Positions 17,001 to 63,027 of a stretch of 64,000 nt of DNA are shown piece by piece. The stretch lies in the sequence record KP869102. The stretch is one strand, 5' to 3'. This DNA comes from Escherichia coli O157 typing phage 4. The translations under genes and the position numbers were made by a program. Position 1 is the stretch's first letter, and every line of letters starts with the position of its first letter. Below the pieces are notes generated by a model. It was not told the origin of the DNA. It did not search any database and worked only from the letters and a program-made list of their open reading frames with translations.

Positions 17001-17762
17001 ATGCGACGACTGATTATTATCTCCGGTGCTGGTTTGAGCGCTGAATCTGGTATTCCCACTTTCCGATCTGGTAGCACTGCAATGTGGGAGAATTTCAGCA
17101 TCGATGAGGTGTGCAACATCCACACCTTTGCCAAGAACTACTATAAGGTGCATGACTTTTACAATGCACGTCGCGTAGCTCTGGGCAGTGTTGATCCTAA
17201 CCTTGCACATCTTCGGATCGCTGAGTGGTATTCCCGCTGGTCTGGTCGTGTGATCAACCTTACCACCAATGTAGATGATTTGCTGGAGCGTGCTGGTGTA
17301 AAACATGAAGATATTTTACATGTCCACGGGTATTTGCCTGAAATCACCTACGAAGATGCTGAAGGTAATGATGTAATTAAAAATATCGGATACACGGAGG
17401 TAGATACAGGCAAGTATACCTGGGTTAAGCCCAATGTAGTGTTCTTCGGTGAGGTTGCTCCTAAGTATACAGACATGTATGACCTGTTGACATCTCTCAC
17501 AAGCAATGATATGGTGATCCTGGTAGGTTGTTCTAACACAGTTATTAATTTTAACTGGGAATTGTTTCCTGCTACTTGTAAAGGCACAAAACTGCTGATT
17601 GTAAACAAGTATGATTCGCAGAGTGCAGATGGAAGTGGCATTTCACGTAGCGACCTTTATCAATATGAGGATCGCGGGATCCCTGTATGGTTTAACGGTG
17701 CTGTTGACGCTTTCTCTGATAAAGTATTTATTGAAACTGTAGAAAACTTTATGGAACTTTAA
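17001..17762 (+). CDS. Sir2-family NAD-dependent deacetylase / ADP-ribosyltransferase
   Basis: Sirtuin motifs GAGLSAESGIPTFR, NxDxL-like TTNVDDL and HG. Confidence 0.7.
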   Translation: MRRLIIISGAGLSAESGIPTFRSGSTAMWENFSIDEVCNIHTFAKNYYKVHDFYNARRVALGSVDPNLAHLRIAEWYSRWSGRVINLTTNVDDLLERAGVKHEDILHVHGYLPEITYEDAEGNDVIKNIGYTEVDTGKYTWVKPNVVFFGEVAPKYTDMYDLLTSLTSNDMVILVGCSNTVINFNWELFPATCKGTKLLIVNKYDSQSADGSGISRSDLYQYEDRGIPVWFNGAVDAFSDKVFIETVENFMEL

Positions 17763-55460: not shown

Positions 55461-55859
55461 TTATTCGTGGGCACATGTTACAATGTGCTTTTTATAGCCC
55501 AGGTGGGCAGCAAGTGCCGCCAAAAACTCATCTTCATAGATCCAGCCGTTGGCAGTGATCCCCATAGCATTTAATGCGCTCTCAAGTGCTGCGTTAGCTT
55601 TATCATAACCGTGACCGCTCGCCTTGCCGCCAGTATAACCGTACTTATTGTTCTTGTTGTCGTGTATCCAAAAAACGCAGTAGTTAGTGTTACCGCTGGC
55701 GGCGGCATAGTACCGGATCTCCGCTACTTCGTGCAAATTATTATCATCGTCCAGGCCAACCAGATTATAAGCCTTGTAAAATCCACGATCACGGCGGCAG
55801 TTCTTGACATCAGAAAAAGAGAAGTCGGCATTGTCAAAATTAAAGGTTGTGGTTTTCAT
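55461..55859 (-). CDS. hypothetical protein
   Basis: 132-aa ORF. Confidence 0.45.
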   Translation of the reverse strand: MKTTTFNFDNADFSFSDVKNCRRDRGFYKAYNLVGLDDDNNLHEVAEIRYYAAASGNTNYCVFWIHDNKNNKYGYTGGKASGHGYDKANAALESALNAMGITANGWIYEDEFLAALAAHLGYKKHIVTCAHE

Positions 55860-55923
55860 GATTTTATCCTCTTAGTGTCTTTTGTGATTTCAGTATATTT
55901 TGTGTCGGGGCGTATGTCAATAC

Positions 55924-56121
55924 TTATTTTTTATTAAACCAGTGATTGATCTGACCTTTTGTCAGGGCGCAACGATTAAGCTGTTGCAGGGTATAGCTAT
56001 GACCGCGACGAAATTTATAAAGGCCTTGCCCGTTGTTGATGGTTACATCCACCAGGCAAACCACTTGATCGGTGACCACCTGGCGAGTGTTGCGACGTAC
56101 TTTGATTCCGTATGCGTTCAT
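55924..56121 (-). CDS. hypothetical basic protein
   Basis: 65-aa ORF. Confidence 0.35.
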   Translation of the reverse strand: MNAYGIKVRRNTRQVVTDQVVCLVDVTINNGQGLYKFRRGHSYTLQQLNRCALTKGQINHWFNKK

Positions 56122-56209
56122 GATTTTTTATCCTCTCTGTTAATTAGTGTGGTGTTGTTCACCTTGCGAGGATAAGAATAACAAGAACTGTCCGAGCTGT
56201 CAACCATTA

Positions 56210-56362
56210 GTTAAAATTATTTTTGCCCCTGCCAGGTTAACCATCATTTTTTCGTACTCTTCTTTATGTTCCAACGCTCCCGCCATAGCCTTTTCAACCA
56301 GGGCGATAGCCTCAGCGTCATTAATAGCTACATTTTCCAGGGGGATCATATTACCTTTCATT
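56210..56362 (-). CDS. small hypothetical protein (~50 aa)
   Basis: Minus ORF MKGNMIPLENVAINDAEAIALVEK... with AAGGGGAGG RBS; below ORF-track length cutoff. Confidence 0.3.
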
Positions 56363-56544
56363 TTTGTACCTCCCCTTCAATTGTTACCTATCCTATAGCA
56401 TAGGCCCACCAGGTTTACAAGCCTTCATTCTCTCCTGCCTGGTCAGTTAGGTCCTGCCAGGCTGGCCCCGCCAGGTTGCAGCGGTTAGCGCATCAGGTTA
56501 GAAAAATTTTTTGAAAAGTGTTGACAGCGGCCCCGCCAGGTGGC
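56231..56544. repeat. iteron-like array of CYGCCAGGT motifs (about 7 copies)
   Basis: cctgccaggtt, cccaccaggtt, cctgcctggtc, cctgccaggct, ccccgccaggtt, catcaggtt, ccccgccaggtg read directly. Confidence 0.55.
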
Positions 56545-56894
56545 ACAATATACCTATCGAAAGGACGGCAGGCACCGGTGACGGGGGAGGCAACCACCGG
56601 GGATGGACGCTGCATAAAATGAGAACGGTTATCATTATCATTTAAAAATTTATGCAAAAAATCCTTGCTTTCTTTGTCCTGTGTGATACTATAATAACAA
56701 GCCGGGGCAACAGGGGCCGGGAGACAATCACCGGGCCTGCCCGTTATTCTGCAAACGAGAATGATTATCATTCAAAATTCTAAATGAGAACTCCTCGCAT
56801 TTAATAAATTTAATTAGCATGCTAATTACCCTCCGTAACAATTTCCTATAAAACAGTATCCCATAAAATATTTCCATATAGAAATTTTAAAAAT

Positions 56895-57069
56895 CCATTT
56901 CTGAAAACGAAAAATCGATTTCGTCCCCAAAAATTTCAGGTCGAGATCCGGAACGATTTCCAGAAAATCCGATTTAGAAAACGAAAAACAGATCGAGTAC
57001 TGAGAAATTTATCGAGAAAAATTTTCAGAAAATTCAATCTTTGAAACGAAAAACAGATCGAGTACCTGG
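56895..57069. repeat. AT-rich direct repeats (unit ending GAAAACGAAAAACAGATCGAGTAC), two full copies and one partial
   Basis: Near-identical ~44-bp copies at ~56957-57000 and ~57023-57066, partial copy ~56895-56925. Confidence 0.6.
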
Positions 57070-57377
57070 AAAGCTGCACTGCAACTTCAAGATAGTGGTT
57101 AGATTATTACCATAAAAGGTCAAGGGTAAGTGGAGGAAGTTCTAGTAGAAGGATGTGAGCATGTGTGGGAAATCTATAATGGTGGCCTGGAATATGGTGC
57201 AAACGATAGGATGAGTTATTCAGCTTGTCGCGCCTACTCTGAAAAATCCATTTTAGTTTTCGATCCATTTTCTGATTTTCTAAGAATTTTAAAATATCCA
57301 GCCCGGTGAAATATCAAAAGGAGGAAATCCATTTTAGAAATCCCCCTTATACTTGATATGCCAGGAATTTTCAAGTA

Positions 57378-57707
57378 TCAGTTGTCTTTGTTTTTAGGTT
57401 TGTACATGCGCAGAGGTATGGTCTTTGTAACATTCCATTTCCTCAACCCTTCCCAGCTCCAGTTGTGGGCGTGGTATCCGGTTATGCATGCACTACTGGA
57501 GTGATCGTAAGCATAAGAGAACGCTAAGCGCACCAGGTGGGGCCAGTCCTTCCATGGTTGTGGACCGTAAGCTTTTCTCCAACACCGACACAAACTAAAT
57601 GTCTCAAGGATAGGAAGGATAACAAACCCATACACTGTCACCAAAATAGTCAGTGCAATGATTGTCAGGAACACATACCCTGCAGTTGAAATGATGATCT
57701 CTGTCAT
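57378..57707 (-). CDS. membrane protein
   Basis: N-terminal TM helices; 109 aa. Confidence 0.4.
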   Translation of the reverse strand: MTEIIISTAGYVFLTIIALTILVTVYGFVILPILETFSLCRCWRKAYGPQPWKDWPHLVRLAFSYAYDHSSSACITGYHAHNWSWEGLRKWNVTKTIPLRMYKPKNKDN

Positions 57708-57907
57708 TTGTCGTCCCCTTTCTTACGGATATAGATGTGAGAACCTGCCTGTATATAAATTTCTCGACCATCTTCTGCGAAGATGTGGAATACACGGTCA
57801 CCTTCGTACTCAATACGAGATATCTTCATAATGGTCTTTCCACCTGGGATACGGATCTCGTCCCCCACAGCGATGTTCCATGCAGATTTAAGCTTAAACA
57901 TCTGCAC
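57704..57907 (-). CDS. hypothetical protein
   Basis: 67 aa, overlapping stop/start. Confidence 0.4.
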   Translation of the reverse strand: MQMFKLKSAWNIAVGDEIRIPGGKTIMKISRIEYEGDRVFHIFAEDGREIYIQAGSHIYIRKKGDDK

Positions 57908-60917: not shown

Positions 60918-61184
60918 TTAAAAAGGGATGTCATCATCAAAGGAGTACTGTGCTGGATTCTGATCCATTGGGTCATCTTCCTCATCATTTACAGGAGGAG
61001 CGTCTACAGTGTTTTGCTGTGGAGCTGCTTCCTGTTTGGTAGCCTGAGGTTCTTGATGGTCAGTTGACCCAGCACCGTTCTTGATCCAATCGTACAACGG
61101 CTCAGCCAGATTAGTCAAGACATCTTTTGCTTCTGCAGTAATTGCCGCTGCAAAATCATCAACTTTCGTTTTCTTGTCAATACG
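60918..61184 (-). CDS. SSB-like protein, C-terminal fragment ending DDDIPF (5-prime part lost in gap)
   Basis: Gly/Pro/Gln-rich linker then acidic tip ...PAQYSFDDDIPF-stop. Confidence 0.4.
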   Translation of the reverse strand, partial: RIDKKTKVDDFAAAITAEAKDVLTNLAEPLYDWIKNGAGSTDHQEPQATKQEAAPQQNTVDAPPVNDEEDDPMDQNPAQYSFDDDIPF

Positions 61185-62533: not shown

Positions 62534-63027
62534 ATTGCAGACCTACCGGAGCGAAAGGAATGTCATCACAGAAGTCATACTGTGCTGGATTCTGATCCAT
62601 CGGGTCATCTTCCTCATCATTTACAGGAGGAGCGTCTACAGTGTTTTGCTGTGGAGCTGTTTCCTGTTTGGCAGCCTGAGGTTCTTGATGGTCAGTTGAC
62701 CCAGCACCGTTCTTGATCCAATCGTACAACGGCTCAGCCAGATTAGTCAAGACATCTTTTGCTTCTGCAGTAATTGCCGCTGCAAAATCATCAACTTTCG
62801 TTTTCTTGTCAATACGGCGACAAGCGTTCAACACCGCATTACCGACACTGGCACCTACTTCATCTTCAGTTCGGTTGGTGGCCTGAGCATACTCTTTCTT
62901 AAGCTCAATGGTGACTACGTGCAGTGTTTTAGCCACGCCCAGTGGGTCGTCTACCTTAAACCCGCGATCCAGGATGATCTGCAACGCATTGATGCTATGC
63001 CCCGTTTCCACACCGATAGGGTCGTAA
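62505..63027 (-). CDS. SSB-like protein (copy 2), partial, with C-terminal extension past DDIPF
   Basis: Same linker and acidic tail as 60918 copy but frame continues ...[23 protein letters not shown]; N-terminus lost at gap. Confidence 0.4.

What the first reader, a model, noticed from the sequence alone, without database searches (positions are those of the whole stretch)
56231..57370. About 1 kb non-coding region with iterons, AT-rich direct repeats and paired Fur-box-like palindromes
The region holds about 7 copies of CYGCCAGGT within ~320 bp, two promoter-like elements each followed by a GC-rich structured segment ending in a palindrome resembling a Fur box (GAGAATGATTATCATTC, GAGAACGGTTATCATTATCATT), then ~44-bp AT-rich direct repeats and four AAATCCATTT(T) motifs. 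Iterons plus an AT-rich unwinding region is the classic replication-origin architecture; the promoter-proximal GC-rich segments could instead be small RNAs.
Basis: seen in the sequence. Interest (0 to 1): 0.65.

Follow-up and report, generated by a model that had tools for sequence, protein, structure and literature searches.

The report
Phage non-coding hub with Fur boxes
A roughly 1-kb protein-free stretch of an rV5-like E. coli phage carries two host-type promoters for small structured RNAs, each ending in a binding-site sequence for the host iron sensor Fur, then three long phased repeats beside easily melted DNA; it is conserved across several phage genera, I found no description of it, and it may be a replication origin or an iron-responsive switch.

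Summary
The window is Escherichia phage JES2013, a Vequintavirus (rV5-like). The described features are all present and far beyond chance. The region is non-coding. ORF185 and ORF186, annotated there, fail coding tests.

The "Fur-like palindromes" belong to the true Fur-box class. A one-base variant, exact in sister genera, sits just upstream of iron-uptake genes in many bacteria.

Each box belongs to a cassette: a conserved sigma-70 promoter, a 60-90-nt structured RNA and a Fur box. The RNA is a new family with no Rfam match and some covariation. The cassettes lie on the strand opposite to all neighbouring genes.

Downstream lie the second least stable DNA of the window and three phased 40-60-bp iterons. 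Their sequence and spacing are kept in at least five genera.

The CYGCCAGGT cluster is real but lineage-specific and partly deleted in relatives. The long "AT-rich repeats" are the better iterons.

Function is unproven. My best reading is a Fur-gated early transcription unit firing into an origin-like iteron and unwinding array (confidence 0.4). GC skew, DnaA and IHF scans and neighbouring proteins give no support for an origin. I found no published description.

The parts
56200..56361 (-). ORF184, a 53-aa small gene at the left edge. It is probably real but dispensable.
   Evidence: It has a strong GGAGG ribosome-binding site and matches phrog_21957. It is frameshifted in rV5, EI-SP-GF and IMG127 and replaced by a diverged homologue in MiataMamis and IMG128.
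56229..56541 (+). Cluster of six CYGCCAGGT-like 9-mers (56229, 56406, 56435, 56454, 56468, 56533). It is also the densest CCWGG patch of the window.
   Evidence: One search gives 6 same-strand copies against about 0.08 expected. One search gives 8 CCWGG in 320 bp, the window maximum. The cluster is partly deleted in WM and EI-SP-GF.
56521..56549 (+). Promoter P_A: TTGACA, 17 nt, TGg-CACAAT (extended -10). The predicted start is about 56556.
   Evidence: It scores 10 of 12 with TG in the promoter scan. It is invariant in 11 Vequintavirus sequences.
56556..56645 (+). Unit A RNA, a diverged paralogue of the RNA-2 family. Its loop is GAGGCAACCACC in JES2013 and GAGACAACCACC in the relatives.
   Evidence: It aligns in register with RNA-2. 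The covariance-model match is weak, 5.3 bits, and the fold z-score is -0.2.
56618..56642 (.). Fur box A, made of two overlapping 19-mers.
   Evidence: It is the only site in 64 kb within 3 mismatches of GATAATGATAATCATTATC, against 0.03 expected. It has 2 mismatches to AATGAKAATNATTMTCATT.
56665..56692 (+). Promoter P_B: TTGCTT, 16 nt, TGa-TACTAT. The predicted start is about 56699.
   Evidence: Read directly. Across genera the hexamers and their spacing are kept while the spacer sequence diverges.
56698..56768 (+). Unit B RNA, a member of the new RNA-2 family. It has helices P1 and P2 with the loop GAGACAAUCACC, and helix P3 overlaps the left half of Fur box B.
   Evidence: The covariance model gives 53.6 bits, E = 2e-11. 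The fold z-score is -2.5 on the + strand against -0.9 on the - strand. Rfam gives no match.
56754..56772 (.). Fur box B.
   Evidence: It has 1 mismatch to AATGAKAATNATTMTCATT. It differs by one base from the 18-mer found upstream of iron-uptake genes in bacteria.
56783..56801 (.). Degenerate third Fur-like box, AATGAGAACTCCTCGCATT.
   Evidence: It has 4 mismatches. A well-formed second box occupies this position in GAP31, 4MG, Mydo and CR8.
56802..56900 (.). AT-rich stretch of low duplex stability, a candidate unwinding element.
   Evidence: GC content is 23-30%. The 60-bp window at 56835 is the second least stable of the 64 kb, 3.5 sd below the mean.
56872..57072 (+). Three phased iterons: 56872-56933 (degenerate), 56946-57007 and 57011-57072. 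Copies 2 and 3 end in the GATC-containing core GATCGAGTAC; the degenerate copy 1 does not.
   Evidence: The same three-copy array, with spacing of 63-67 and 74-78 bp, occurs in Seunavirus, Mydovirus, Certrevirus, a Serratia phage and IMG/VR contigs.
57073..57235 (.). Hypervariable spacer, annotated as ORF186.
   Evidence: It carries many substitutions and 1-2-nt indels. The ORF has frameshifts or stops in relatives, and substitutions fall 33:38:27 by codon position.
57236..57345 (+). Conserved right-hand block. It holds half-iterons AAATCCATTT (57244, 57261 variant, 57325) and AAATATC boxes (57292, 57309).
   Evidence: AAATATC(A) arrays lie at the same boundary in other genera.
57346..57381 (.). 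An 11-bp inverted repeat overlapping the ORF187 stop codon (57378-57380) and extending downstream of it. It may be a terminator for leftward transcription.
   Evidence: Inverted repeat I13. It has no clean T-run, so this reading is tentative.

Best explanation
This is a conserved non-coding early control module of rV5-like phages.

**Proposed working**
- Two tandem host sigma-70 promoters, P_A and P_B, lie on the strand opposite to every neighbouring gene.
- Each drives a 60-90-nt structured RNA of one previously undescribed family, here called RNA-2.
- Each transcription unit carries a canonical Fur operator at about +56 to +85.
- Transcription is aimed at the least stable DNA of the neighbourhood and at three phased 40-60-bp iterons. 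I read this array as origin-like, bound by an unidentified phage protein.
- Fur-Fe2+ bound at the boxes would block read-through into the array, would modulate the next promoter downstream, or both. Box A ends 22 nt before the -35 of P_B. In sister genera the boxes end 14-17 nt before a further promoter, P4.
- Activity of the array would thereby be tied to host iron status.

**Shown here**
- The region is non-coding.
- The boxes belong to the Fur-box class.
- The promoters are conserved.
- The RNA fold is specific to the + strand and shows some covariation.
- The iterons and the low-stability segment are conserved.

**Inferred**
- Fur actually binds.
- Fur acts by roadblock or gating.
- The array is an origin of replication.
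For: - **Non-coding.** ORF185 has in-frame stops in two relatives and substitutions of 12:14:14 by codon position. The ORF187 control gives 8:8:21. ORF186 is frameshifted in several relatives. Annotation of these ORFs is inconsistent among relatives.
- **Fur boxes.** One site lies within 3 mismatches of the 19-mer consensus, against 0.03 expected. The best boxes in the 98 of 137 kb of the genome that I scanned are here only. The related 18-mer occurs in at least 120 viral contigs, against 10 for its reversed control. In bacterial chromosomes it sits 17-140 nt upstream of TonB-dependent receptors, siderophore-binding proteins, a ZnuA-type protein and a Lys/Orn monooxygenase-like enzyme.
- **Promoters.** P_A scores 10 of 12 with an extended -10. 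The -35 and -10 hexamers and their spacing are kept across genera while the spacer diverges.
- **RNA.** A covariance model finds unit B and homologues in all the genera searched. 90% of cells pair, against 35-55% in slid controls. Four pairs carry compensatory changes, and the many G-U pairs fit only the + strand. Fold z-scores on the + strand run from -1.7 to -3.7. Every paralogue keeps its Fur box.
- **Iterons and unwinding segment.**
- **Conservation of the module.** It recurs in unannotated gaps of about 390-960 bp in Seunavirus, Mydovirus, Certrevirus and Phapecoctavirus.
- **Not the packaging site.** The direct terminal repeat of the Mydovirus KPP-1 lies elsewhere.
Against: - There is no experimental evidence for transcription, Fur binding or replication initiation.
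- The boxes do not overlap the -35 or -10 of their own promoter, the classical geometry for Fur repression.
- No intrinsic terminator follows the RNAs.
- Unit A matches the RNA model only weakly.
- The alignment used for the pair counts was fitted to the model, so it leans towards the structure.
- For the origin reading, no DnaA or IHF sites are present.
- Neighbouring proteins all have unknown function, so no initiator is identified.
- GC skew steps from about 0 on the left to about -0.13 on the right, the opposite of a bidirectional origin.
- The rV5 authors found no origin by skew analysis.
- A second copy of RNA-2 with its Fur box in Mydovirus-like genomes has no iterons downstream and lies upstream of same-strand genes. 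The cassette therefore does not need the array.
Confidence: 0.4

Rival explanations
1. This is a regulatory RNA locus and not an origin. Units A and B are trans- or cis-acting small RNAs, or leaders, whose output depends on Fur and iron. The iterons and half-iterons are operator sites for a phage transcription regulator that shuts the + strand island off or times early expression.
For: - The cassette of promoter, RNA-2 and Fur box is separable. A second copy in Mydovirus-like genomes sits about 310 nt upstream of same-strand genes with no iterons.
- The loop GAGACAAACACC is nearly invariant, like a seed sequence.
- Skew, DnaA and IHF scans and neighbouring proteins give no support for an origin.
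Against: - There is no intrinsic terminator or Hfq-type 3' end.
- No complementary target lies in this half of the genome.
- The iterons lie 100-370 bp downstream of the promoters, an odd place for operators.
- The iteron array is fused to the second least stable DNA segment of the window.
Confidence: 0.3
2. The boxes are a Fur decoy. Amplified with the replicating genome, they soak up Fur and de-repress host iron uptake for iron-dependent phage enzymes. The RNAs and repeats would be unrelated neighbours.
For: Among loci chosen for carrying the Fur 18-mer, viral loci hold clusters far more often than bacterial loci. Two or more boxes lie within 300 bp in 49 of 120 viral loci against 11 of 120 bacterial loci. 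Three or more occur in 25 against 0.
Against: - JES2013 has only two good boxes and one degenerate box per genome.
- The fixed position of a box at the 3' side of every RNA-2 paralogue points to a local cis role.
Confidence: 0.1
3. This is a packaging recognition site. The three repeats would be binding sites for the small terminase subunit, like cosB R1-R3 of lambda.
For: - Three phased repeats lie in a non-coding stretch.
- A few database records begin inside or near the module.
Against: - In the Mydovirus KPP-1 the 514-bp direct terminal repeat mapped by coverage and PhageTerm lies in a different non-coding region, yet Mydoviruses keep this module.
- Vequintaviruses are reported as headful and circularly permuted.
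- The module is far from the terminase genes.
Confidence: 0.05
4. The region codes for proteins, as annotated in GenBank (ORF185 of 92 aa and ORF186 of 53 aa).
For: Open frames exist in JES2013 and are annotated in some relatives.
Against: - Relatives carry in-frame stops and frameshifts, and substitutions show no third-position bias.
- ORF185 has no ribosome-binding site.
- The homologous sequence is unannotated and not open in other genera.
Confidence: 0.03

Closest known systems
Primary replication origin of phage T7 (tandem promoters phi1.1A and phi1.1B followed by an AT-rich segment); from my own knowledge
   Same: Two tandem promoters fire into an AT-rich, easily melted segment. The phage also encodes a T7-like primase/helicase and a DNA polymerase.
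   Different: The promoters here are host sigma-70 type. The transcripts are conserved structured RNAs. Fur boxes and three long iterons lie between and after them. No initiation has been mapped.
Phage T4 oriF and oriG (promoter plus downstream unwinding element, R-loop primer) and ColE1 RNA II; from my own knowledge
   Same: A promoter-proximal RNA is directed at an unwinding element. A structured RNA lies upstream of the putative start.
   Different: There is no evidence for an R-loop or for processing. No counter-transcript promoter was found on the - strand. Iterons are present here.
Iteron-type origins (lambda ori, P1 oriR, plasmids such as pSC101 and R6K); from my own knowledge
   Same: Direct repeats are phased on the helix next to AT-rich DNA.
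   Different: The repeat units are 40-60 bp at a 63-78-bp period, not about 20 bp in close tandem. There are no DnaA or IHF sites. No initiator gene overlaps or adjoins the array.
Fur-repressed bacterial small RNAs (RyhB, PrrF)
   Same: A small RNA gene is physically coupled to a Fur box.
   Different: In those genes the box overlaps the promoter, which I state from my own knowledge. Here it lies at +56 to +85. There is no sequence similarity or Rfam match, and no intrinsic terminator.
The classical Fur operator or 'iron box' (GATAATGATAATCATTATC; aerobactin iucA site GATAATGAGAATCATTATT)
   Same: The 19-bp dyad and the 7-1-7 layout are the same. The GAGAAT hexamer variant also occurs in the aerobactin site, which I recall from memory. 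Fur models of E. coli, P. aeruginosa and B. subtilis are highly similar (PMC2189734).
   Different: The boxes sit in a virulent phage with no iron gene nearby, and downstream of their own promoter.
Phage-encoded small RNAs reviewed in PMC12197685, and the sRNA of bioRxiv 10.1101/2024.10.31.621285 (lambda PreS, as I recall)
   Same: A phage small RNA with a possible link to replication.
   Different: These are unrelated sequences. The review does not mention rV5-like phages or Fur.

Membership tests
Fur box (Fur operator) | A 19-bp dyad matching GATAATGATAATCATTATC, or the 7-1-7 layout TGATAATnATTATCA | tested here: met
   Box A has 3 mismatches to the 19-mer, against 0.03 sites expected. Box B has 1 mismatch to AATGAKAATNATTMTCATT.
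Fur box (Fur operator) | The same sequence class lies at promoters of iron-uptake genes in bacteria | tested here: met
   The 18-mer, exact in GAP31 and phAPEC8 and one base off in JES2013, lies 17-140 nt upstream of TonB-dependent receptors (3), Peripla_BP_2 proteins (2), a ZnuA-type protein (1) and a Lys/Orn monooxygenase-like enzyme (1). These loci span Proteobacteria, Bacilli and Cyanobacteria.
Fur box (Fur operator) | Overlap with the -35 or -10 of the regulated promoter, the classical repression geometry | tested here: not met
   The boxes lie at +56 to +85 of their own unit. Box A lies at -81 to -57 relative to the P_B start (coordinates).
Fur box (Fur operator) | Binding of Fur-Fe2+ | not testable with these tools
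   This needs a gel shift, a footprint or ChIP.
Iteron-type replication origin | Three or more direct repeats with helical phasing | tested here: met
   There are three copies spaced 74 and 65 bp in JES2013, and 63-67 and 74-78 bp in five or more genera.
Iteron-type replication origin | An adjacent AT-rich unwinding element | tested here: met
   The 60-bp window at 56835-56894 is the second least stable of 64 kb.
Iteron-type replication origin | Host-factor sites (DnaA boxes, IHF) | tested here: not met
   Only one 1-mismatch DnaA-like 9-mer was found, at background rate, and no IHF consensus site.
Iteron-type replication origin | An initiator gene adjoining the array or containing it | tested here: not met
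   The flanking proteins match only PHROG families of unknown function and no Pfam family.
Iteron-type replication origin | A strand-composition switch at the site | tested here: not met
   GC skew goes from about 0 on the left to -0.13 on the right, although genes on both sides are on the - strand. This is the wrong sign for a bidirectional origin.
Iteron-type replication origin | Mapped initiation of DNA synthesis | not testable with these tools
   This needs marker-frequency or nascent-strand mapping.
Any Rfam RNA family | A covariance-model match | tested here: not met
   Only tRNAs reach gathering score in the window. Nothing credible appears at E up to 10 in the region. Five sister loci give nothing at E up to 1.
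Structured non-coding RNA (new family RNA-2) | A conserved promoter, a strand-specific fold and covariation | tested here: inconclusive
   The promoters are conserved. 90% of cells pair against 35-55% in slid controls, and 4 pairs have compensatory changes. That alignment was fitted to the model, RNAalifold on a plain MAFFT alignment finds only P3, and unit A fits poorly.
Hfq-type trans-acting sRNA | An intrinsic terminator with a U-tail | tested here: not met
   No + strand terminator-like site lies in 55800-57800.

The most novel reading that the evidence does not exclude
rV5-like phages license DNA replication through the host iron sensor. Fur-Fe2+ bound between host-type early promoters and an unwinding element with iterons would decide whether transcripts of a new structured RNA family enter and activate, or prime, the origin. 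That would make a Fur-gated, transcription-activated phage origin. More widely, clustered Fur boxes could be a common way for phages to read or manipulate host iron status.
Probability: 0.15. Interest if true: 0.85.

Novelty: new variant of a known kind. Interest (0 to 1): 0.6.

Why it matters
rV5-like phages (Vequintavirinae) and phAPEC8-like phages are widely isolated as candidates for therapy and biocontrol. The rV5 genome paper failed to locate an origin by skew analysis, and I found no description of an origin or of non-coding RNAs for these phages.

This module gives concrete things to test:
- a candidate origin;
- a new RNA family with about 30 distinct homologues;
- a direct sequence-level link between a virulent phage and the host Fur regulon.

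If Fur really acts here, infection outcome would depend on iron availability, which is limiting in the gut and in blood. That matters for phage therapy. The wider excess of clustered Fur boxes in viral contigs suggests the link is not confined to this group.

Tried and rejected
- **Rfam.** Searches at gathering and at permissive thresholds on the window and on five sister loci found no family.
- **Relatives through a flanking protein.** The search for related loci with ORF187 returned only 2 IMG/VR loci, so I fetched relatives one by one from the phage collection.
- **Mis-specified pattern.** My first RNA-1 pattern was off by one base and found nothing, which wasted a scan. The corrected pattern gave 16 loci.
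- **Iteron pattern.** A variable-gap iteron pattern was too loose. It returned mostly single chance hits, and only known relatives had multiple copies.
- **Unit A as RNA-1.** I tested whether unit A is a diverged copy of RNA-1 from the sister genera. The RNA-1 model finds nothing in the 98 kb of JES2013 that I scanned.
- **A - strand promoter over the Fur boxes.** One candidate in JES2013 (TTAAAT, 16 nt, TAGAAT) is not conserved in other genera, so I dropped it.
- **A further + strand promoter (P4) after box B.** It is present in Seunavirus, Mydovirus and L095, but only a weak, non-conserved candidate exists in Vequintavirus.
- **Target search for the RNA-2 loop.** Only self-matches turned up in the window. 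Host targets could not be searched.
- **Genome termini.** The direct terminal repeat of KPP-1 lies elsewhere.
- **GC skew, DnaA and IHF scans.** None supports an origin.
- **Literature.** Searches found no description of this region. One of those searches was too broad to be useful.
Full report
**Identity and observation**

The window is 100% identical to Escherichia phage JES2013 (KC690136, Vequintavirus, rV5-like). Window position equals record position minus 58962. All genes flanking the region are on the - strand.

- Six same-strand CYGCCAGGT-like 9-mers lie in 313 bp, against about 0.08 expected.
- GAGAAYGRTTATCATT occurs at 56621 and 56757 only.
- Three direct repeats of about 62 nt begin at 56872, 56946 and 57011. 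Their 24-nt core occurs twice, against 0 expected.
- AAATCCATTT occurs three times, only in 56891-57334.

The same sequence recurs in 121 phage records, so the features are not sequencing artefacts.

**Coding status**

GenBank places ORF184, ORF185 and ORF186 in the region. I aligned 11 Vequintavirus sequences and tested each frame.
- ORF185 has two in-frame stops in MiataMamis and IMG128. Its substitutions fall 12:14:14 over the three codon positions. The real gene ORF187 gives 8:8:21.
- ORF186 lies in a hypervariable stretch with 1-2-nt indels. It has frameshifts or stops in WM, YN3 and IMG128, and substitutions of 33:38:27.
- ORF184 looks like a real small gene. It has a good ribosome-binding site and matches phrog_21957. 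It is nonetheless disrupted in three relatives.

Other annotators leave 0.7-1.3 kb empty at this place. The stretch 56362-57377 is therefore non-coding.

**Anatomy, left to right**

1. The CYGCCAGGT cluster, which is also the densest CCWGG patch of the window.
2. P_A at 56521-56549: TTGACA, 17 nt, TGgCACAAT.
3. Unit A, about 56556-56645, ending in Fur box A at 56618-56642.
4. P_B at 56665-56692: TTGCTT, 16 nt, TGaTACTAT.
5. Unit B, about 56698-56773, ending in Fur box B at 56754-56772, followed by a degenerate third box at 56783-56801.
6. An AT-rich stretch whose 60-bp window at 56835 is the second least stable of the 64 kb.
7. Three iterons, 56872-57072.
8. A hypervariable spacer, 57073-57235.
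9. A conserved block, 57236-57345, with AAATCCATTT half-iterons and AAATATC boxes.
10. A hairpin just past the ORF187 stop codon.

**Fur boxes**

- Box A is the only site in 64 kb within 3 mismatches of the E. coli 19-mer consensus, against 0.03 expected.
- I scanned 98 of the 137 kb of JES2013. The best matches to AATGAKAATNATTMTCATT are 56754 (1 mismatch) and 56618 (2 mismatches), both in this region. A weaker box with 4 mismatches lies at 56783.
- Sister genera carry the exact 18-mer ATGAGAATGATTATCATT where JES2013 differs by one base.
Its reversed-sequence control occurs in 10.
- It also occurs in at least 120 bacterial contigs from Proteobacteria, Bacilli and Cyanobacteria.
- I took seven bacterial loci and identified the first ORF downstream of the 18-mer. 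Three are TonB-dependent receptors, two are Peripla_BP_2 siderophore-binding proteins, one is ZnuA-type and one is Lys/Orn monooxygenase-like.

This is the signature of the Fur regulon. The boxes are therefore sequence-level members of the Fur-box class. Binding itself is untested.

**RNA units**

The region 56726-56808 keeps 77-86% nucleotide identity in Mydovirus, Seunavirus, Certrevirus and Phapecoctavirus, mostly in unannotated gaps.

Reading those loci shows one module throughout:
- often a small + strand ORF;
- a near-consensus promoter driving 'RNA-1';
- a second promoter driving 'RNA-2', which runs into one to four Fur boxes;
- three iterons;
- further short repeats.

Across genera the -35 and -10 hexamers and their spacing are kept while the spacer sequence diverges. 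That pattern is what selection on promoter function would leave.

For RNA-2:
- Minimum-energy folds in four lineages share P1, P2 with the loop GAGACAAACACC, and P3. The + strand z-scores are -1.7 to -3.7, better than the - strand in each case.
- A covariance model built from ten sequences recovers unit B at 53.6 bits and 28 further copies.
- On that alignment 90% of cells pair, against 35-55% for slid partners. Four pairs have compensatory changes, and the covariation score exceeds all 500 shuffles.
- The many G-U pairs fit only the + strand.
- Two cautions apply. The alignment was fitted to the model, and RNAalifold on a plain alignment finds only P3.

Unit A shares the promoter, the loop (GAGACAACCACC in the relatives) and the box. 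It lacks P1 and P3 and scores only 5.3 bits. I read it as a diverged paralogue.

RNA-1 has a clean 10:10 A-U to G-C compensatory pair. It is absent from the JES2013 sequence that I scanned.

Neither RNA matches Rfam.

Every RNA-2 paralogue keeps a Fur box at its 3' side. This includes a second copy elsewhere in Mydovirus-like genomes and two copies in an unrelated 104-kb contig.

**Iterons**

The long repeats are the conserved ones. The consensus is AATACGATYT, a short dyad, then GATCGAG(A/T)(A/C)CC. There are three copies, except four in CB7 and L034, with main spacings of 63-67 and 74-78 bp. This holds in JES2013, GAP31, 4MG, Mydo, CR8, ChuuTotoro and L095. phAPEC8 has different AT-rich repeats at the same place.

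The CYGCCAGGT copies behave differently. They vary within the genus and are partly deleted in WM and EI-SP-GF. In other genera only GC-rich CCNGG promoter spacers stand in their place.

**Function**

An origin-like reading fits several facts:
- tandem promoters firing against the local gene direction;
- aimed at a low-stability segment;
- followed by a phased, conserved protein-site array;
- in a genome that encodes a T7-type primase/helicase and a DNA polymerase.

Packaging is unlikely. In the Mydovirus KPP-1 the 514-bp terminal repeat mapped by coverage and PhageTerm lies in another region. Vequintaviruses are reported as headful and permuted.

Nothing beyond architecture supports an origin.
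- There are no DnaA or IHF sites.
- No initiator gene is nearby.
- The GC-skew step has the wrong sign.
- The rV5 authors found none by skew analysis.

The cassette also occurs without iterons. The left and right halves may therefore be separate devices.

The Fur boxes are not over their own promoter. They are placed either to block elongation or to act on the next promoter downstream. Box A ends 22 nt before the -35 of P_B. In Seunavirus, Mydovirus and L095 the boxes end 14-17 nt before the -35 of P4.

I commit to a Fur-gated early transcription unit aimed at an origin-like array, with confidence 0.4. The main rival is a regulatory RNA locus with no role in replication, at 0.3.

**Novelty**

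The rV5 genome paper marks a 'non-coding' box in its map without discussing it. A 2025 review of phage small RNAs mentions neither these phages nor Fur. My searches found no description of the module.

The components are of known kinds. The new points are the coupling of a Fur box to a structured RNA cassette in a virulent phage, the conserved iteron array, and the RNA family itself.

Noticed in passing
IMG/VR loci L007-L126 versus bacterial loci L145-L264: Among loci chosen for carrying the Fur 18-mer, viral loci hold clusters of Fur-like boxes far more often than bacterial loci. Two or more boxes lie within 300 bp in 49 of 120 viral loci against 11 of 120 bacterial loci. Three or more occur in 25 against 0, with up to 7 in one locus. 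Some viral loci have (GAGAAT)n hexamer arrays (L021, L059, L126). In others the box lies beside DnaA-box clusters (L061) or parS-like sites (L020, L022, L032).
   Followed up: partly
L004:2306-2422, L003:2373-2489 and 19 further loci (alignment A1): Sister genera carry a second conserved structured RNA, 'RNA-1', driven by a near-consensus sigma-70 promoter just upstream of RNA-2. It has a clean 10:10 compensatory pair and no Rfam match. It also has conserved GGA motifs, so a CsrA-sponge role is an untested idea. It is absent from JES2013.
   Followed up: partly
L036:4311-4382 (-) and L278:4976-5047 (-): Mydovirus-like genomes hold a second copy of the cassette (promoter, RNA-2, Fur box). It lies about 7 kb from the main module and about 310 nt upstream of same-strand genes, without iterons.
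   Followed up: partly
L283:1880-2700 (Klebsiella phage KPP-1, record about 116.7-117.5 kb) and L036:1132-1263: Further Fur-like boxes lie next to and just beyond the published 514-bp direct terminal repeat of this Mydovirus. One sits just downstream of a TTGACA promoter.
   Followed up: no
window 60950-61130 and 62580-62760 (- strand): Two neighbouring - strand coding regions share a nearly identical segment of about 170 nt, encoding ...[28 protein letters not shown].... They appear to be paralogous small genes. They surfaced as weak chance hits of the RNA-2 model.
   Followed up: no
window 52794 onward: A run of N lies here, a masked or unresolved stretch. It is close to where GC skew changes sign at about 51-52 kb, which I take to be the switch from + strand to - strand genes.
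   Followed up: no
Phage records MG0656xx (H11-H14, H17, H18, H24, H25): Sixteen or seventeen records named 'Campylobacter phage', with host given as C. jejuni, are about 95% identical to this E. coli rV5-like phage across the region and carry no annotation. The host assignment looks doubtful.
   Followed up: no
Plasmid record CP057073.1 (137,565 bp), 17154-17747: An rV5-like phage genome is filed as a non-mobilizable E. coli 'plasmid' from cattle faeces. It is 96% identical over the module.
   Followed up: no
L269 (PQ002170.1, Salmonella phage R7): The record is classified under Demerecviridae yet carries the Seunavirus-type module. It begins inside the module, with an 80-bp 'attL' repeat annotated over the Fur box. 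This is probably an assembly-overlap artefact.
   Followed up: no
L284 (JES2013 record 132600-133925): The phage encodes a putative adenine methyltransferase. Each well-formed iteron contains GATC within a CGATCG dyad, so methylation of the array is conceivable. GATC is not depleted in the window, at 5.6 per kb.
   Followed up: no
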